Shown: positions 14,988 to 18,174 of the stretch, in pieces
Numbering within the stretch: the stretch's first letter is position 1
Layout of the letters: every line of letters begins with the position of its first letter
Sequence record: NC_014792.1
Length of the DNA: 64,000 bases
From: Escherichia phage vB_EcoM_VR7
Reading direction: 5' to 3' (one strand)
Translations under genes and position numbers: made by a program
The notes under the pieces: model-generated
Database searches by the model: none
Told to the model about the DNA's origin: nothing
Seen by the model: only the letters and a program-made list of their open reading frames with translations

Positions 14988-15010
14988 TAAAAAAGGACCC
15001 CGAAGGGTCC
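14988..15010 (-). terminator. Rho-independent terminator (GGACCC-TTCG-GGGTCC + U-run)
   Basis: Perfect hairpin 14995-15010 with A-run on plus side (U-run for minus transcript), directly after 15017..15313. Confidence 0.55.
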
Positions 15011-15016
15011 TTTGTA

Positions 15017-15313
15017 TTATTTCTTACAACCAACATATTTTGGCATATGACAGAAAACAGAATCGGTAACTACTCGACCCTTTGCCCATGCTTCCTGTGC
15101 TTTACCGTGAGTAGTATTCACATAGCTGGATTTAATATTCTCAATACCTTGAGAATGTGATGCGTGTGCAGAACCATTAGAAGGACCTGCTGACTGACTT
15201 GAACTTTGACCGCCGGTGGAACCACCAGGGCCTGATGTGCCTTCAGTAGCCAGTACACCAAAAGACATAACAGCGGCCAACAGGCCTATAGCCACTTTTA
15301 ATTTTAATTTCAT
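15017..15313 (-). CDS. Secreted Gly/Ser-rich small protein
   Basis: 98 aa; signal-peptide-like MKLKLKVAIGLLAAVMSFGVLA then low-complexity G/S/Q region. Confidence 0.5.
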   Translation of the reverse strand: MKLKLKVAIGLLAAVMSFGVLATEGTSGPGGSTGGQSSSQSAGPSNGSAHASHSQGIENIKSSYVNTTHGKAQEAWAKGRVVTDSVFCHMPKYVGCKK

Positions 15314-15376: not shown

Positions 15377-15619
15377 TTAAATTGCACTCCAAAAATTATG
15401 GAATCTGATATCATCGATAGCCCAGTTAGCAAACTCGCGGGTTTGCTTGGGAGTTGGTTTACATATGTACTTATTGTTGATTCGTCTGCCAGTTTCCCGA
15501 CAGACTGCTTCGAGATACCAGCGCCGACCTTTATTGGGTCTTCCATATGATAAGAAGACCTTCATTTCTTCATTAACGATAATAGGAATTGTGGTTGTCA
15601 AGATATACCTCTTCAACAA
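15377..15619 (-). CDS. Hypothetical protein
   Basis: 80-aa ORF; alternative frame 15352..15546 also open. Confidence 0.35.
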   Translation of the reverse strand: MLKRYILTTTIPIIVNEEMKVFLSYGRPNKGRRWYLEAVCRETGRRINNKYICKPTPKQTREFANWAIDDIRFHNFWSAI

Positions 15620-16583
15620 ACTTGTCCCAGAACTTCATGTCTACCTTATCGGGCATACCGTTCTTTGCCGCCCAGATGGCATTGGTTTCGACTTCATCGA
15701 CGATTGCTTCAAGTTCAGCTTGTACATCTTTAAAAGCGTGTAGGCCTTGTTTGATTTCAAGGATAAATGGAGCCGTACGTAAAGGATATTGGAGATCGCC
15801 TTTTTGATAGATTTCCTTTAACTGGTATCCAGCACGATAAGCATGACTCAGCGCTTTCCAGTCAATACCTTCGTTAGCTTCGGCCTTACGAGCGCGTTCA
15901 CCATATTCGGCATCAAGTTTATTCAGAGATTGCTTAAGCTCGATTAATGACAAAGTAGTTTGGTATTTGCGACCGAGAACAGTATAAAACGTTTGAGGTC
16001 CAGTTTTCTCATGGTTATGGAATACCCATTCACAGAATTCATTCTCTGGGAGACGATGCTTAATATCTTCAACTTTAGTGCGACGTTGTTTAGTCGTACC
16101 ATCTTCTTGGTAGTCAACCCACTGTTCAGGAATCTGGTTAACAATTGCCAGTACACCACGTAAAGCCGCCAGTCTAGAACCTTTAACACCATATTTTGAA
16201 GCTTGCTTACGGACGTACCCCAAATATGCTTTCATGTTGGTCGTATAGAACCGTGAACGGTTGTCTTGGATAAATTTCCATACATCTGGTAAATCGGATT
16301 TGACTACCAGGTTAGCCGGAGTGTGAATCATGTCTAGAGCAACAGTTTCACCCTCAGCCGCCAATTTAAAGAAATATTTCAGACTATACAATTCATGGTC
16401 AACATCATCTTTTGTGTTCTTGGATGCAGTGTTGTTAGTATTCAAGTTGGTATGGTTCATAGCCGTACCTAACAGAATGTCACGTGGGTGTGGAACAAAG
16501 ATTTCCTTAAAATCGACATCAGATTCAGGAGTACTTGTTCCATAAAGATGGCTACCGAAGTAGCCTTTCATAACTGTTCTCAT
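15573..16583 (-). CDS. Nucleotidyltransferase-fold protein (Pol-beta-type GS...DxD motif)
   Basis: 336 aa; GYFGSHLYGTSTPESDVDF near N-terminus then helical domain; ATGA coupling with upstream membrane gene. Confidence 0.55.
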   Translation of the reverse strand: MRTVMKGYFGSHLYGTSTPESDVDFKEIFVPHPRDILLGTAMNHTNLNTNNTASKNTKDDVDHELYSLKYFFKLAAEGETVALDMIHTPANLVVKSDLPDVWKFIQDNRSRFYTTNMKAYLGYVRKQASKYGVKGSRLAALRGVLAIVNQIPEQWVDYQEDGTTKQRRTKVEDIKHRLPENEFCEWVFHNHEKTGPQTFYTVLGRKYQTTLSLIELKQSLNKLDAEYGERARKAEANEGIDWKALSHAYRAGYQLKEIYQKGDLQYPLRTAPFILEIKQGLHAFKDVQAELEAIVDEVETNAIWAAKNGMPDKVDMKFWDKFVEEVYLDNHNSYYR

Positions 16584-17032
16584 TTCTTCGCCTCAAAATG
16601 GATTACTGGACACATCTTAGATTTACGAGCTTTGATATATTGAATGAAAATGTTTTCTTTAGTTTCTCGGCCTTCACGCTCAGCTTTAATTCGTTTCCAT
16701 TCTTTTTCTTCTTTATGTAAATCGTACCAGGTCCATAAATTCATTAGACCATACATTAAACCAAATGCTACCGCCAGAATAAGAGCCAGTGTAGATAGCC
16801 CCAAAATAAAACCTAACCCTAAACCAACCGGAATACTTAATACAAAGAACTGCTCCAATACACCAGCACCTGCAACAGTTAAGGCGAAGATTGTACTGCC
16901 AATAAAAACTGCACAAACAAAACAGGCCCATACAATTTTCCAGAAGTAAGCACACAAAGAGTGTGGACGAGAATGACGGTCATAAAAACGGTCGTGTAAT
17001 TTAGCGTGCCAAGAGTTTGTATTGATAATCAT
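16580..17032 (-). CDS. Multi-pass membrane protein
   Basis: 150 aa; three to four hydrophobic helices, basic C-terminus. Confidence 0.5.
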   Translation of the reverse strand: MIINTNSWHAKLHDRFYDRHSRPHSLCAYFWKIVWACFVCAVFIGSTIFALTVAGAGVLEQFFVLSIPVGLGLGFILGLSTLALILAVAFGLMYGLMNLWTWYDLHKEEKEWKRIKAEREGRETKENIFIQYIKARKSKMCPVIHFEAKK

Positions 17033-17041
17033 AATAATTCC

Positions 17042-17599
17042 TTATGCGTTCATAGTTGGGATAACAGTGTTCAGGTATTTTACCAGAACTTTTAATTCGT
17101 CTTTAGTGAATACTACTTCAGCTTCACCATCGTGGGTCTGGATGATAGATAACATATCGCGACCTTGATGTTGATGGACACTGAATTCAGTATTATAATC
17201 ACCTTCTTCATCACCTTCAAAGGTTTCGCTTGAATGCATAATAGCATCACAACCAGGAATTTTCCACTCGAGCTCAGGTACACACTCTTCTTGGAAGAGT
17301 TTAAAAATACAATCAAAGAATTTATCAGAATCGCTGATGCTTAGGCATTCTTCATCTGTTTCGATATTAAACCCGGCGTCGTGCTTATAAATGCGAGCAC
17401 ATACATCATCGTTAATATCAAATACACCGCTAAAACTACCGTCAAGATATCCATCTTTATCCAAAACCATTAAATCATAAAGCGGTTTGATATCATGGAT
17501 AGTTAGTACGATTTTATCGTCTTCTTGACTAAGCTCAATTGCATTATTAACTACTTCAGCAGTCAGTTCGCCAAACAATTCAGTTGTTTCAATAATCAT
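17042..17599 (-). CDS. Hypothetical acidic protein
   Basis: 185-aa ORF, Asp/Glu-rich. Confidence 0.5.
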   Translation of the reverse strand: MIIETTELFGELTAEVVNNAIELSQEDDKIVLTIHDIKPLYDLMVLDKDGYLDGSFSGVFDINDDVCARIYKHDAGFNIETDEECLSISDSDKFFDCIFKLFQEECVPELEWKIPGCDAIMHSSETFEGDEEGDYNTEFSVHQHQGRDMLSIIQTHDGEAEVVFTKDELKVLVKYLNTVIPTMNA

Positions 17600-17916: not shown

Positions 17917-18174
17917 TCATCTCATGCTCCTATGCCAACAGTTACGTGGCTCACGTTTAAAAACTTTATCATGCATTGATTGACAACCAACACAATATAT
18001 CACACCTTTAATCGCTTGTCTCCGCGCTTCAGGGATTTTTTCATCGCAGTCAAAACAGAATTCAGCAGACTCCCTTTCAACTGCAACCTGTGCTCTCGCA
18101 TGGGTGATAGCGGCTTGTACAACCGCTTCCATCTCTAACTGTTCAGCGCCATCTTTTGCAAATCCAACAGCCAT
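17917..18174 (-). CDS. TraR/DksA-like C4 zinc-finger protein
   Basis: 85 aa; CFDCDEKIPEARRQAIKGVIYCVGCQ (CxxC-17-CxxC). Confidence 0.55.
   Translation of the reverse strand: MAVGFAKDGAEQLEMEAVVQAAITHARAQVAVERESAEFCFDCDEKIPEARRQAIKGVIYCVGCQSMHDKVFKREPRNCWHRSMR

What the first reader, a model, noticed from the sequence alone, without database searches (positions are those of the whole stretch)
15573..17032. Nucleotidyltransferase-fold protein translationally coupled to a multi-pass membrane protein
The 336-aa ORF starts with GYFGSHLYGTSTPESDVDF, the Gly-Ser...Asp-x-Asp signature of Pol-beta-superfamily nucleotidyltransferases, followed by a long helical domain. Its ATG overlaps the stop of a 150-aa protein with several transmembrane helices. 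This fold includes antibiotic nucleotidyltransferases, minimal nucleotidyltransferase toxins and cyclic-nucleotide synthases, so a two-gene membrane/NTase module in an early phage region is a candidate host-manipulation or anti-defence unit. I cannot tell which subfamily it belongs to.
Basis: partly seen in the sequence, partly recalled or inferred. Interest (0 to 1): 0.6.

Follow-up and report, generated by a model that had tools for sequence, protein, structure and literature searches.

The report
T4 NrdC.11-type RNA-repair nucleotidyltransferase plus membrane partner
The 336-aa protein is this phage's copy of the T4 gene nrdC.11, a member of the known RlaP family of enzymes that add a nucleotide or two to broken RNA ends during RNA repair; the small membrane protein in front of it is uncharacterised, but its relatives sit next to RNA-repair genes in several unrelated phages.

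Summary
On the minus strand, a 150-aa membrane protein (16580-17032) ends in an ATGA overlap with a 336-aa protein (15573-16583) that carries the G-S...D-x-D motif.

The enzyme is not an orphan. It is 100% identical to NrdC.11 of phage VR7 and 81% identical, without gaps, to T4 NrdC.11. It passes the Pfam threshold for RlaP (PF10127), whose Pseudomonas members add 1-2 nucleotides to RNA 3'-OH ends. Cellular relatives of this subfamily lie near RtcB, Pnkp/Hen1, Ro60, Pnk or Rnl1 in 17 of 65 loci. The most likely role is nucleotide restoration on cleaved tRNA before ligation, which counters host ribotoxins. This role is inferred, not shown.

The overlap itself is ordinary: 24 of 99 same-strand gene pairs in the window overlap by 1 or 4 nt. 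The pairing is also dispensable. The T4 region examined lacks the membrane gene, and VR26 has a homing endonuclease between the two genes.

One result I did not find described in the papers I could search. The membrane-protein family has no Pfam model. In 17 of 46 phage clusters it sits beside RlaP, an Rnl1-, Rnl2- or Rnl5-like RNA ligase, or inside a complete repair cassette. Interest is modest.

The parts
15573..16583 (-). nrdC.11 ortholog: a 336-aa RlaP-family (PF10127) Pol-beta-type nucleotidyltransferase. It has an N-terminal NTase core (G10-S11, D22, D24; probable third acid D62 or D60), a helical domain, and a beta insert at 155-208.
   Evidence: ORF. 81% identical to T4 NrdC.11 with no gaps and 100% identical to VR7 NrdC.11. 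Pfam RlaP 43.1 bits against a cut-off of 23; phrog_388 E 1e-131. Conservation, model, fold hits.
16580..17032 (-). 150-aa small membrane protein (phrog_944, no Pfam family). Conserved N-terminal motif SWH...SLCxYFWK, 2-3 hydrophobic helices, and a basic C-terminal tail YIKAxKxKxCP. Two near-invariant cysteines, C27 and C141.
   Evidence: Family found in 1261 phage records. No match to any solved structure by sequence.
16580..16583 (-). ATGA stop/start overlap between the membrane gene and nrdC.11.
   Evidence: This kind of overlap is common in the window.
16591..16594 (-). GAGG Shine-Dalgarno sequence for nrdC.11, 7 nt upstream of its ATG, inside the 3' end of the membrane gene.
   Evidence: Read directly from the sequence.
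14992..15013 (-). Terminator-like hairpin (9-bp stem, T-run). It is the first one on this strand downstream of nrdC.11, after two small ORFs, and is the probable end of the transcription unit.
   Evidence: The scan also flags hairpins on this strand inside both coding sequences (16965..16951 in the membrane gene; 16565..16550 in nrdC.11); I did not count these as terminators.
17192..17220 (-). Sigma-70-like promoter match (TTGAAG-17-TATAAT, 10 of 12) inside mobD.1, upstream of the membrane gene. This is a consensus match only.
   Evidence: Promoter-like matches in the region were not significantly above the shuffled expectation (19 against 14 +/- 4).

Best explanation
The 336-aa gene is the ortholog of T4 nrdC.11, an RlaP-family (PF10127) nucleotidyltransferase. 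[quoted passage not shown] The expected substrate is the 5' half of a tRNA whose anticodon loop has been cut and trimmed by a host ribotoxin such as RloC. The phage polynucleotide kinase (pseT) and RNA ligase 1 (rnlA), encoded elsewhere in the genome, could then reseal a full-length tRNA. This would make it an accessory, non-essential counter-defence enzyme of the T4 RNA-repair pathway.

The upstream 150-aa gene is co-transcribed and encodes an uncharacterised small inner-membrane protein. Its family recurs next to RNA-repair genes in unrelated phages. I infer that it is an accessory factor of RNA end-healing and sealing, for example a membrane tether or regulator acting through its basic, cysteine-bearing cytoplasmic tails. 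It cannot be an obligate partner of the enzyme.

Shown here: orthology, family membership, conserved catalytic motif, fold, and gene neighbourhoods. Inferred: the enzyme's activity, its in vivo substrate, and any role for the membrane protein.
For: Orthology: 81% identity over 336/336 residues to T4 NrdC.11, 100% to VR7 NrdC.11, and conserved order mobD.1 - (membrane gene) - nrdC.11.

Family: Pfam RlaP 43.1 bits against a cut-off of 23. The preprint PMC12776372 names T4 NrdC.11 as an RlaP (SSN cluster 5) and shows that PfRlaP and PaRlaP add 1-2 NMP to RNA 3'-OH, prefer Mn2+, and do not act on DNA or protein.

Catalytic residues: G10, D22 and D24 are invariant; S11, D60, D62 and D84 are at least 90% conserved in 68 diverse homologs. 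D62 opens strand 61-67 of a confident model.

RNA-repair context of this subfamily: 17 of 65 cellular loci have RtcB, Pnkp ligase, Hen1, TROVE/Ro60, T4-type Pnk, Rnl1 or a CCA-type enzyme within 5 genes.

Partner enzymes: the closest relative, VR25, encodes pseT and rnlA.

Membrane protein: in 46 sequence clusters from 71 viral loci it lies within 4 genes upstream of RlaP (11 clusters), next to an Rnl1-type ligase plus P-loop kinase (Pakpunavirus, 2 clusters), next to PHA02142/Rnl5-like ligases (2 Aeromonas-phage clusters), next to an Rnl2-type ligase (L051), and inside a cassette of HAD-SAK phosphatase, kinase, CCA-like NTase and ligase (L066).
Against: No NrdC.11-type protein has been assayed. 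The Pfam match covers only residues 8-134, and the biochemistry comes from a different RlaP cluster (1a against 5). The window holds no RNA ligase or Pnk, and in VR25 they lie about 90 kb away, so the association with ligase genes that gives the family its name is not met locally. T4 tolerates deletion of nrdC.11-mobD.3 (PMC9825161), so no phenotype is known.

For the membrane protein: the T4 nrdC-tk region keeps nrdC.11 but has no copy of it. VR26 has mobD between the two genes. About 29 of 46 clusters have no identifiable repair gene nearby. Some copies sit next to NAD-salvage or nucleotide-metabolism genes instead, which fits general clustering of accessory early genes. No homolog was found in any cellular RlaP locus.
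Confidence: 0.6

Rival explanations
1. The two genes are functionally unrelated neighbours. The enzyme is an RlaP-type RNA-repair NTase as above. The membrane protein has an independent job, such as superinfection exclusion, lysis timing or another host-takeover function, and sits there only because non-essential early genes are packed tightly and share synteny.
For: The overlap is ordinary (24 of 99 same-strand pairs overlap by 1 or 4 nt). The T4 region examined lacks the membrane gene and VR26 splits the pair with mobD. Other genera have 1-3 genes between them. Most clusters of the family have neighbours of unknown function, and some have NAD-salvage, DHFR or gp32 genes nearby. No membrane homolog occurs next to cellular RlaP genes.
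Against: An RNA ligase of three different families (Rnl1, Rnl2, Rnl5-like) or RlaP lies within three genes downstream of the membrane gene, directly adjacent in Pakpunavirus, in L045 and in several T4-like genera. These are lineages that do not share this synteny, and in L066 the gene lies in the middle of a full repair cassette. My rough estimate is 1-2 ligase genes per roughly 250 genes, so fewer than one such neighbour would be expected among about 35 clusters. No formal test was run.
Confidence: 0.3
2. A Hailong-like or CBASS-like pair: the NTase synthesises a nucleotide or oligonucleotide signal that gates or controls the membrane protein as an ion-channel effector. The phage would use this to manipulate the host membrane, or as a decoy against host Hailong-type defence.
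Confidence: 0.04
3. A minimal-NTase toxin/antitoxin-type enzyme or a small-molecule (aminoglycoside- or lincosamide-type) nucleotidyltransferase that AMPylates a protein or metabolite.
Against: The MntA match is 13.2 bits against a cut-off of 60, and NTP_transf_2 is 13.8 against 21. No HEPN toxin gene is adjacent. Characterised RlaP enzymes labelled RNA but not E. coli proteins or DNA (PMC12776372). The gene neighbourhoods point to RNA repair.
Confidence: 0.04

Closest known systems
Phage T4 NrdC.11 (NP_049709, annotated 'nucleotidyltransferase')
   Same: Ortholog: 336 aa in both, 81% identity with no gaps. Same position downstream of mobD.1 in the nrdC-tk early region.
   Different: In T4 the slot immediately upstream holds the mobD homing endonuclease, and the nrdC-tk region has no membrane gene. 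I found no functional assay of T4 NrdC.11 in the papers searched; the fragment nrdC.11-mobD.3 is deletable (PMC9825161).
RlaP family (PF10127): PfRlaP and PaRlaP of Pseudomonas (Burroughs & Aravind 2016; Carruthers, Fatma & Huang 2025 preprint, PMC12776372)
   Same: Pfam match above threshold. G-S...DxD core. Two-domain architecture of NTase plus helical domain. Cellular relatives of the NrdC.11 subfamily lie in RtcB, Pnkp-Hen1, Ro60 and Rnl1-Pnk neighbourhoods.
   Different: A different sequence cluster (5 against 1a in the preprint). Only the N-terminal ~127 residues align to the Pfam model. There is a beta-sheet insert (155-208) that varies across the wider family. The gene is not adjacent to a ligase in this phage. 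No activity has been measured.
T4 tRNA repair pathway (PseT polynucleotide kinase/phosphatase plus Rnl1) countering the PrrC anticodon nuclease
   Same: This is the presumed pathway the enzyme feeds into. pseT and rnlA are present in the closest relative, VR25.
   Different: The classical pathway needs no nucleotide addition. RlaP would matter only for lesions that lose nucleotides, such as RloC wobble excision (PMC2610378, PMC3458546). That link is a published hypothesis and has not been demonstrated for any phage.
Hailong defence system (HalA membrane channel plus HalB NTase)
   Different: No sequence similarity. HalA is a large tetrameric channel with a cytoplasmic crown, whereas this membrane protein has 150 aa. 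HalB makes protein-primed poly-dA. Hailong is a host defence system, not a phage gene pair.
Kanamycin nucleotidyltransferase ANT(4') and other NTase plus helical-domain enzymes
   Different: About 10% identity, small-molecule substrates, and no family-level sequence match.

Membership tests
RlaP (Pfam PF10127) | Scores above the Pfam gathering threshold for PF10127 | tested here: met
   43.1 bits against a cut-off of 23, E 5e-11. Residues 8-134 align to profile positions 25-142 of 249. All close homologs carry a precomputed PF10127 hit.
RlaP (Pfam PF10127) | Pol-beta NTase catalytic signature: G-[GS] loop, DxD on strand 2, and a third conserved acidic residue | tested here: inconclusive
   G10, D22 and D24 are invariant; S11, D60, D62 and D84 are at least 90% conserved in 68 homologs. 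D62 starts strand 61-67 of the model.
RlaP (Pfam PF10127) | N-terminal NTase domain plus C-terminal helical domain ending in a terminal helix (PfRlaP crystal structure description) | tested here: met
   The AF2 model (pLDDT 94.9) has an NTase core at 2-67, helices at 68-150 and 213-335 including a terminal helix at 316-335, and an extra beta insert at 155-208. Packing of the terminal helix against the NTase domain could not be checked. The PfRlaP structure did not appear in the PDB copy searched.
RlaP (Pfam PF10127) | Gene neighbourhood with RNA ligases or other RNA-repair genes (the origin of the name) | tested here: inconclusive
   Not met in this window: no ligase or Pnk, and pseT and rnlA lie about 90 kb away in VR25. 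Met for cellular members of the same subfamily: 17 of 65 loci have RtcB, Pnkp, Hen1, TROVE, Pnk, Rnl1 or a CCA-type enzyme within 5 genes.
RlaP (Pfam PF10127) | Adds 1-2 NMP to RNA 3'-OH and prefers Mn2+ | not testable with these tools
   Biochemistry is known only for PfRlaP and PaRlaP (PMC12776372).
Orthologs of T4 nrdC.11 | Full-length collinear similarity and conserved genomic position | tested here: met
   81% identity, 336/336 residues, no gaps. Lies downstream of mobD.1 in the nrdC-tk region, as in T4, SP18 and others.
Hailong (HalA/HalB) | Sequence homology of the NTase to HalB and of the membrane protein to HalA | tested here: not met
CBASS CD-NTase and other catalogued defence NTases | Match to a PADLOC defence-system model | tested here: not met
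   No PADLOC family matched either protein at E up to 1.
MntA/MNT minimal NTase antitoxins | NCBIfam MntA equivalog score and an adjacent HEPN toxin gene | tested here: not met
   13.2 bits against a cut-off of 60. No HEPN-type ORF is adjacent.

The most novel reading that the evidence does not exclude
The 150-aa membrane protein belongs to a widespread phage family with no Pfam model (1261 phage records). This family may be an unrecognised membrane-bound component of phage RNA-repair and anti-ribotoxin systems. Through its conserved cytoplasmic Cys-bearing N-terminal motif (SLCxYFWK) and basic C-terminal tail (YIKAxKxKxCP), it would recruit or regulate whichever end-healing or sealing enzyme is encoded after it (RlaP, Rnl1, Rnl2 or Rnl5-like ligase). 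That would place tRNA repair at the inner membrane.
Probability: 0.25. Interest if true: 0.6.

Novelty: new member of a known kind. Interest (0 to 1): 0.35.

Why it matters
The enzyme itself adds little. It is a named T4-family gene in a family that has been described since 2016 and was characterised biochemically in 2025. The analysis does show directly that the NrdC.11-type subfamily sits in RNA-repair operons in cellular genomes. That strengthens the untested idea that T4-like phages carry a third repair activity, nucleotide restoration, to counter anticodon nucleases that excise nucleotides (RloC-type). The more useful lead is the membrane protein. If it works with RNA-repair enzymes, it would be a membrane-anchored component that I found no report of in the papers I could search, and it would assign a function to a gene family present in more than a thousand phage genomes.

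Tried and rejected
- PDB sequence searches with the single protein and with a 68-sequence profile found nothing. The PfRlaP crystal structure did not appear among the matches, by sequence or by fold, so no direct structural comparison with a characterised RlaP was possible.
- The first AF2 model, built from a shallow alignment of 67-93% identity, failed for the NTase core (pLDDT below 50 for residues 1-66). It was replaced by a model from a diverse alignment.
- The AFDB50 fold library was unavailable.
- Model coordinates are not exposed to scripts, so the distances between the catalytic acids could not be measured.
- Burroughs & Aravind 2016 (PMC5062991) is not held. I therefore could not check whether that paper already noted a membrane protein in RNA-repair neighbourhoods. 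The 2021 jumbo-phage review by the same group does not mention one in its RNA-repair section.
None occurs in the 80 cellular RlaP loci.
- PADLOC and NCBIfam gave nothing useful.
- PHROG and Pfam scans of the unannotated genes next to other membrane-protein homologs mostly returned 'unknown'.
- I checked whether the stretch that is 100% identical in protein to T4 (about residues 181-240; only two substitutions across 161-247) reflects recent recombination. It does not: third-codon positions are only 30-70% identical there.
Full report
**1. What is in the sequence**

Both ORFs are on the minus strand. The 336-aa ORF runs 16583 to 15573 and begins MRTVMKGYFGSHLYGTSTPESDVDF. The 150-aa ORF runs 17032 to 16580. 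The stop of the 150-aa ORF and the start of the 336-aa ORF overlap as ATGA. A GAGG Shine-Dalgarno sequence lies 7 nt upstream of that ATG, inside the end of the membrane gene.

The consensus scan flags no terminator in the junction between the two genes; its other minus-strand matches lie inside coding sequence. The first hairpin downstream of nrdC.11 that looks like a true terminator is at 15013..14992, two small ORFs further on. The two genes are therefore almost certainly co-transcribed, and re-initiation at the overlap is plausible.

This layout is the norm here. With a simple ORF caller, 40 of 99 same-strand neighbouring pairs in the window overlap, 12 by 4 nt and 12 by 1 nt. The overlap alone does not define a module.

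**2. Identity of the enzyme**

The window comes from a T4-like phage (Tevenvirinae). The best DNA match in the phage collection is Gaprivervirus VR25, at 94-95% identity. The protein is 100% identical to 'NrdC.11' of Escherichia phage vB_EcoM_VR7. It is 81% identical over all 336 residues, without a gap, to T4 NrdC.11.

Gene order matches T4, SP18 and JS98-type phages: nrdC.9, small ORFs, nrdC.11, (membrane gene or mobD), mobD.1. The upstream 185-aa ORF at 17042-17599 carries the two Pfam y05I/MobD.1 domains.

Pfam places the protein in RlaP (PF10127, 'RNA repair pathway DNA polymerase beta family') at 43.1 bits against a gathering score of 23, over residues 8-134. PHROGs gives phrog_388 'nucleotidyltransferase' at E 1e-131. 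NCBIfam MntA (13 bits against 60) and PADLOC (no match) do not support toxin-antitoxin or defence-type NTases.

**3. What is known about that family**

Burroughs and Aravind named RlaP in 2016 for its linkage to RNA ligase genes; I could not read that paper. A December 2025 preprint (PMC12776372) characterised two Pseudomonas members encoded between rtcB and rtcA.
- They label RNA but not E. coli DNA or protein.
- They add one or two NMPs (or dNMPs) to an RNA 3'-OH.
- They prefer the broken end of a tRNA-half mimic, and they prefer Mn2+ or Co2+.
- They partly restore aminoacylation of a tRNA that had lost one anticodon-loop nucleotide before ligation.

The authors list T4 NrdC.11 as an RlaP in a separate similarity cluster (5 against 1a) and did not assay it. 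The proposed role is to counter ribotoxins that remove nucleotides as well as cutting, such as RloC, which excises the wobble nucleotide (PMC2610378, PMC3458546). The 2021 jumbo-phage survey makes the same prediction for phage RlaPs. In T4 the fragment nrdC.11-mobD.3 can be deleted (PMC9825161).

**4. Tests of the assignment made here**

(a) Family size and conservation. An exhaustive HMMER search found 3009 representative clusters (50% identity level) at E up to 1e-3, and 776 at E up to 1e-30. In an alignment of 68 members that are 34-51% identical to the query, the following hold.
- Invariant: G10, G15, S21, D22, D24, Y131, R230, H247, R250, P267.
- At least 90% conserved: S11, D60, D62, D84 and others.

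(b) Structure. With that alignment, AlphaFold2 gives a confident model (pLDDT 94.9, pTM 0.85).
- The NTase core has strands 2-9, 23-30, 44-48 and 61-67, and helix 11-14 follows the G-S loop.
- D22 and D24 lie at the start of strand 2, and D62 at the start of strand 61-67. D62 (or D60) is the likely third metal ligand. I could not measure distances because model coordinates are not exposed.
- A helical domain follows, interrupted by a beta-sheet insert at 155-208.

(c) Fold searches. No close solved structure was found.
- Foldseek against the PDB gave E of 5e-3 or worse.
- Among predicted viral structures, the matches are other phage NTases.

The fold claim is therefore confirmed and the subfamily is RlaP.

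(d) Gene neighbourhood of this subfamily in cellular genomes. I fetched 80 bacterial and archaeal loci encoding NrdC.11-type proteins at 29-50% identity. In 17 of the 65 where the gene was called, an RNA-repair gene lies within five genes. These include:
- bacterial Pnkp (kinase, phosphatase and ligase; PF16542), often with Hen1 (PF12623);
- RtcB;
- TROVE/Ro60;
- T4-type Pnk (AAA_33 plus HAD_PNKP);
- Rnl1;
- a CCA-type enzyme.

This confirms the RNA-repair association for the NrdC.11-type branch itself, not only for the Pseudomonas branch.

(e) Local context. The window contains no RNA ligase or Pnk. In VR25, pseT and rnlA lie about 88-92 kb from nrdC.11. The partner enzymes exist but are unlinked.

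**5. The membrane protein**

It matches phrog_944 ('membrane protein', E 2e-55) and has no Pfam family. None of the 120 homologs listed in the large protein database carries a Pfam hit.

tblastn finds the family in 1261 phage records, against 1561 for NrdC.11. Hosts include Escherichia, Klebsiella, Pseudomonas, Vibrio and Aeromonas.

Across 46 sequence clusters the near-invariant positions are S7, S25-L26-C27-x-Y29-F30-W31, G78, K134-A135, and K139-x-C141-P142. There are two or three hydrophobic segments, and both termini are net basic. That suggests both conserved motifs face the cytoplasm. It has no detectable similarity to any solved structure.

**6. Is the pair a unit?**

Not in the strict sense.
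- The membrane gene directly precedes nrdC.11, with an overlap or a gap of at most 8 nt, in Gaprivervirus (this window, SP18) and Mosigvirus. It also precedes it directly in the QL01-type and O157 typing phage 7 records, whose genera I did not look up.
- In Karam-, Slopek- and Acinetobacter-type relatives, 1-3 other genes lie between them.
- In VR26, whose NTase is 99% identical to this one, the mobD homing endonuclease sits between them.
- In T4, mobD occupies the slot and no membrane homolog is detectable in the nrdC-tk region.

The enzyme does not need the membrane protein, and translational coupling is not conserved.

**7. A looser link to RNA repair**

Outside the T4-like synteny, the membrane gene again lies beside RNA-repair genes, and the partner differs each time.
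- In Pseudomonas phage PAK_P1 (Pakpunavirus) it is immediately followed by an Rnl1-type ligase (PF09511) and a P-loop AAA_33 kinase. A Metallophos phosphoesterase lies three genes upstream.
- In Aeromonas T4-like phages it lies near gene 32, a different genome region. A PHA02142-OB plus PF09414 (Rnl5-like) ligase follows within 0.5 kb. In a second Aeromonas cluster that ligase is the next gene, and T4-type Rnl1 is a few genes further on.
- In a 183-kb metagenomic phage (L051), an Rnl2-type ligase is the next same-strand gene.
- In contig L066 it lies in the middle of this cassette: AAA ATPase, HAD-SAK phosphatase, AAA_33 kinase, membrane protein, two unknown genes, CCA-like NTase, one unknown gene, PHA02142-type ligase.

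In all, 17 of 46 clusters have an RNA-repair gene within a few genes: 11 with RlaP and 6 with ligase or kinase cassettes. Among the Pfam families detected in 110 neighbouring proteins of the remaining clusters, RNA ligase was the most frequent.

My rough expectation is as follows. With one or two ligase genes per roughly 250 genes, far fewer than one ligase within a few genes downstream would be expected by chance among about 35 clusters. This is a back-of-envelope figure, not a formal test.

Four caveats apply.
- About 29 clusters have neighbours with no annotation.
- NAD-salvage genes (NAMPT and PRPP-synthetase-like) flank some copies, so the family may simply live in accessory 'damage-reversal' islands.
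- No homolog occurs in the cellular RlaP loci.
- Ascertainment favours well-modelled enzymes.

**8. Rival readings**

- There is no sequence similarity to HalA or HalB.
- The enzyme passes the RlaP threshold and has RNA-repair neighbourhoods.
- The membrane protein pairs with ligases elsewhere.
- The T4 region examined keeps the NTase alone.

I give this rival about 4%. MNT-antitoxin and antibiotic-NTase readings fail their family thresholds.

**9. Verdict**

The NTase-fold inference is correct, and it can be sharpened to 'ortholog of T4 nrdC.11, RlaP family'. The probable function is nucleotide restoration at broken RNA 3' ends, within the phage's tRNA-repair counter-defence. This function is inferred from homologs and context and has not been shown for any phage member.

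The 'coupled two-gene module' is not a conserved unit. However, the membrane-protein family shows a repeated association with RNA-repair genes in several lineages. I did not find this described in the papers available to me, and it deserves a proper statistical and experimental test.

The enzyme is known biology. The membrane partner is a modest new lead.

Noticed in passing
window 15573-16583 (-), residues ~101-247 of the NTase: Against T4 NrdC.11, residues ~121-140 and ~181-240 are 100% identical in protein, while third codon positions are only 30-70% identical. The N-terminal loop (41-60) and the C-terminal 80 residues are only 55-75% identical in protein. The beta insert (155-208) and the helix after it are therefore under very strong purifying selection within Tevenvirinae, although this segment varies across the wider family. 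It may be a recognition surface for a specific RNA or partner.
   Followed up: partly
L010 (Pseudomonas phage PAK_P1) 942-6405; L061 3790-7085; L069 6560-7453: Homologs of the membrane protein also lie beside NAD-salvage genes (NAMPT/NAPRTase and PRPP-synthetase-like). In PAK_P1 these sit in the same run of genes as the Rnl1 ligase and the kinase. This suggests accessory 'damage-reversal' islands in which RNA repair and NAD reconstitution are co-located.
   Followed up: partly
L014 (Acinetobacter phage Acj61) 2510-3004 and 3001-3390; L060 around 5001: Two tandem paralogs of the membrane protein occur upstream of nrdC.11 in Acj61. The family also appears as two adjacent ORFs upstream of the Rnl1 ligase in a Pakpunavirus-like contig; I did not check whether that is a true duplicate or a frameshift.
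   Followed up: no
L017 (phage VR26) 5420-6223; T4 L002 14430-15209: The mobD homing-endonuclease gene sits exactly at the junction upstream of nrdC.11. In VR26 it lies between the membrane gene and nrdC.11. In T4 it occupies the slot where other phages have the membrane gene, and phage T2 has a 33-residue match to the membrane protein's N-terminus whose position relative to nrdC.11 I did not check (H85). The junction looks like a homing site whose use may have deleted the membrane gene in the T4 lineage.
   Followed up: partly
window 17917-18174 (-): An 85-aa ORF two genes upstream of mobD.1 is a DksA/TraR C4 zinc-finger protein (PF01258, 36.5 bits). Acj61 has a similar gene next to its nrdC.11.
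   Followed up: partly
window 15017-15313 (-): A 98-aa ORF downstream of nrdC.11 has an N-terminal signal-peptide-like hydrophobic segment and a Gly/Ser-rich stretch (phrog_2243, unknown function). It is followed directly by the strongest terminator-like hairpin in the region (15013..14992).
   Followed up: no
window 34571-34726 (-): Only two tRNA genes were found in the window: tRNA-Arg(TCT) and tRNA-Met(CAT), adjacent to each other.
   Followed up: no
L011 (Vibrio phage ICP1) 2911-4043: The ICP1 homolog of the membrane protein (ORF169) overlaps the start of ORF170, which matches phrog_139 (dNMP-kinase-like P-loop kinase). This is another case of a phosphotransfer enzyme placed directly after the membrane gene.
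   Followed up: partly
many phage GenBank records: NrdC.11 orthologs are often mis-annotated as 'thioredoxin' (apparently carried over from the gene name nrdC), and also as 'HNH homing endonuclease' or 'polynucleotide kinase'. One record calls the membrane protein 'oleosin'.
   Followed up: no
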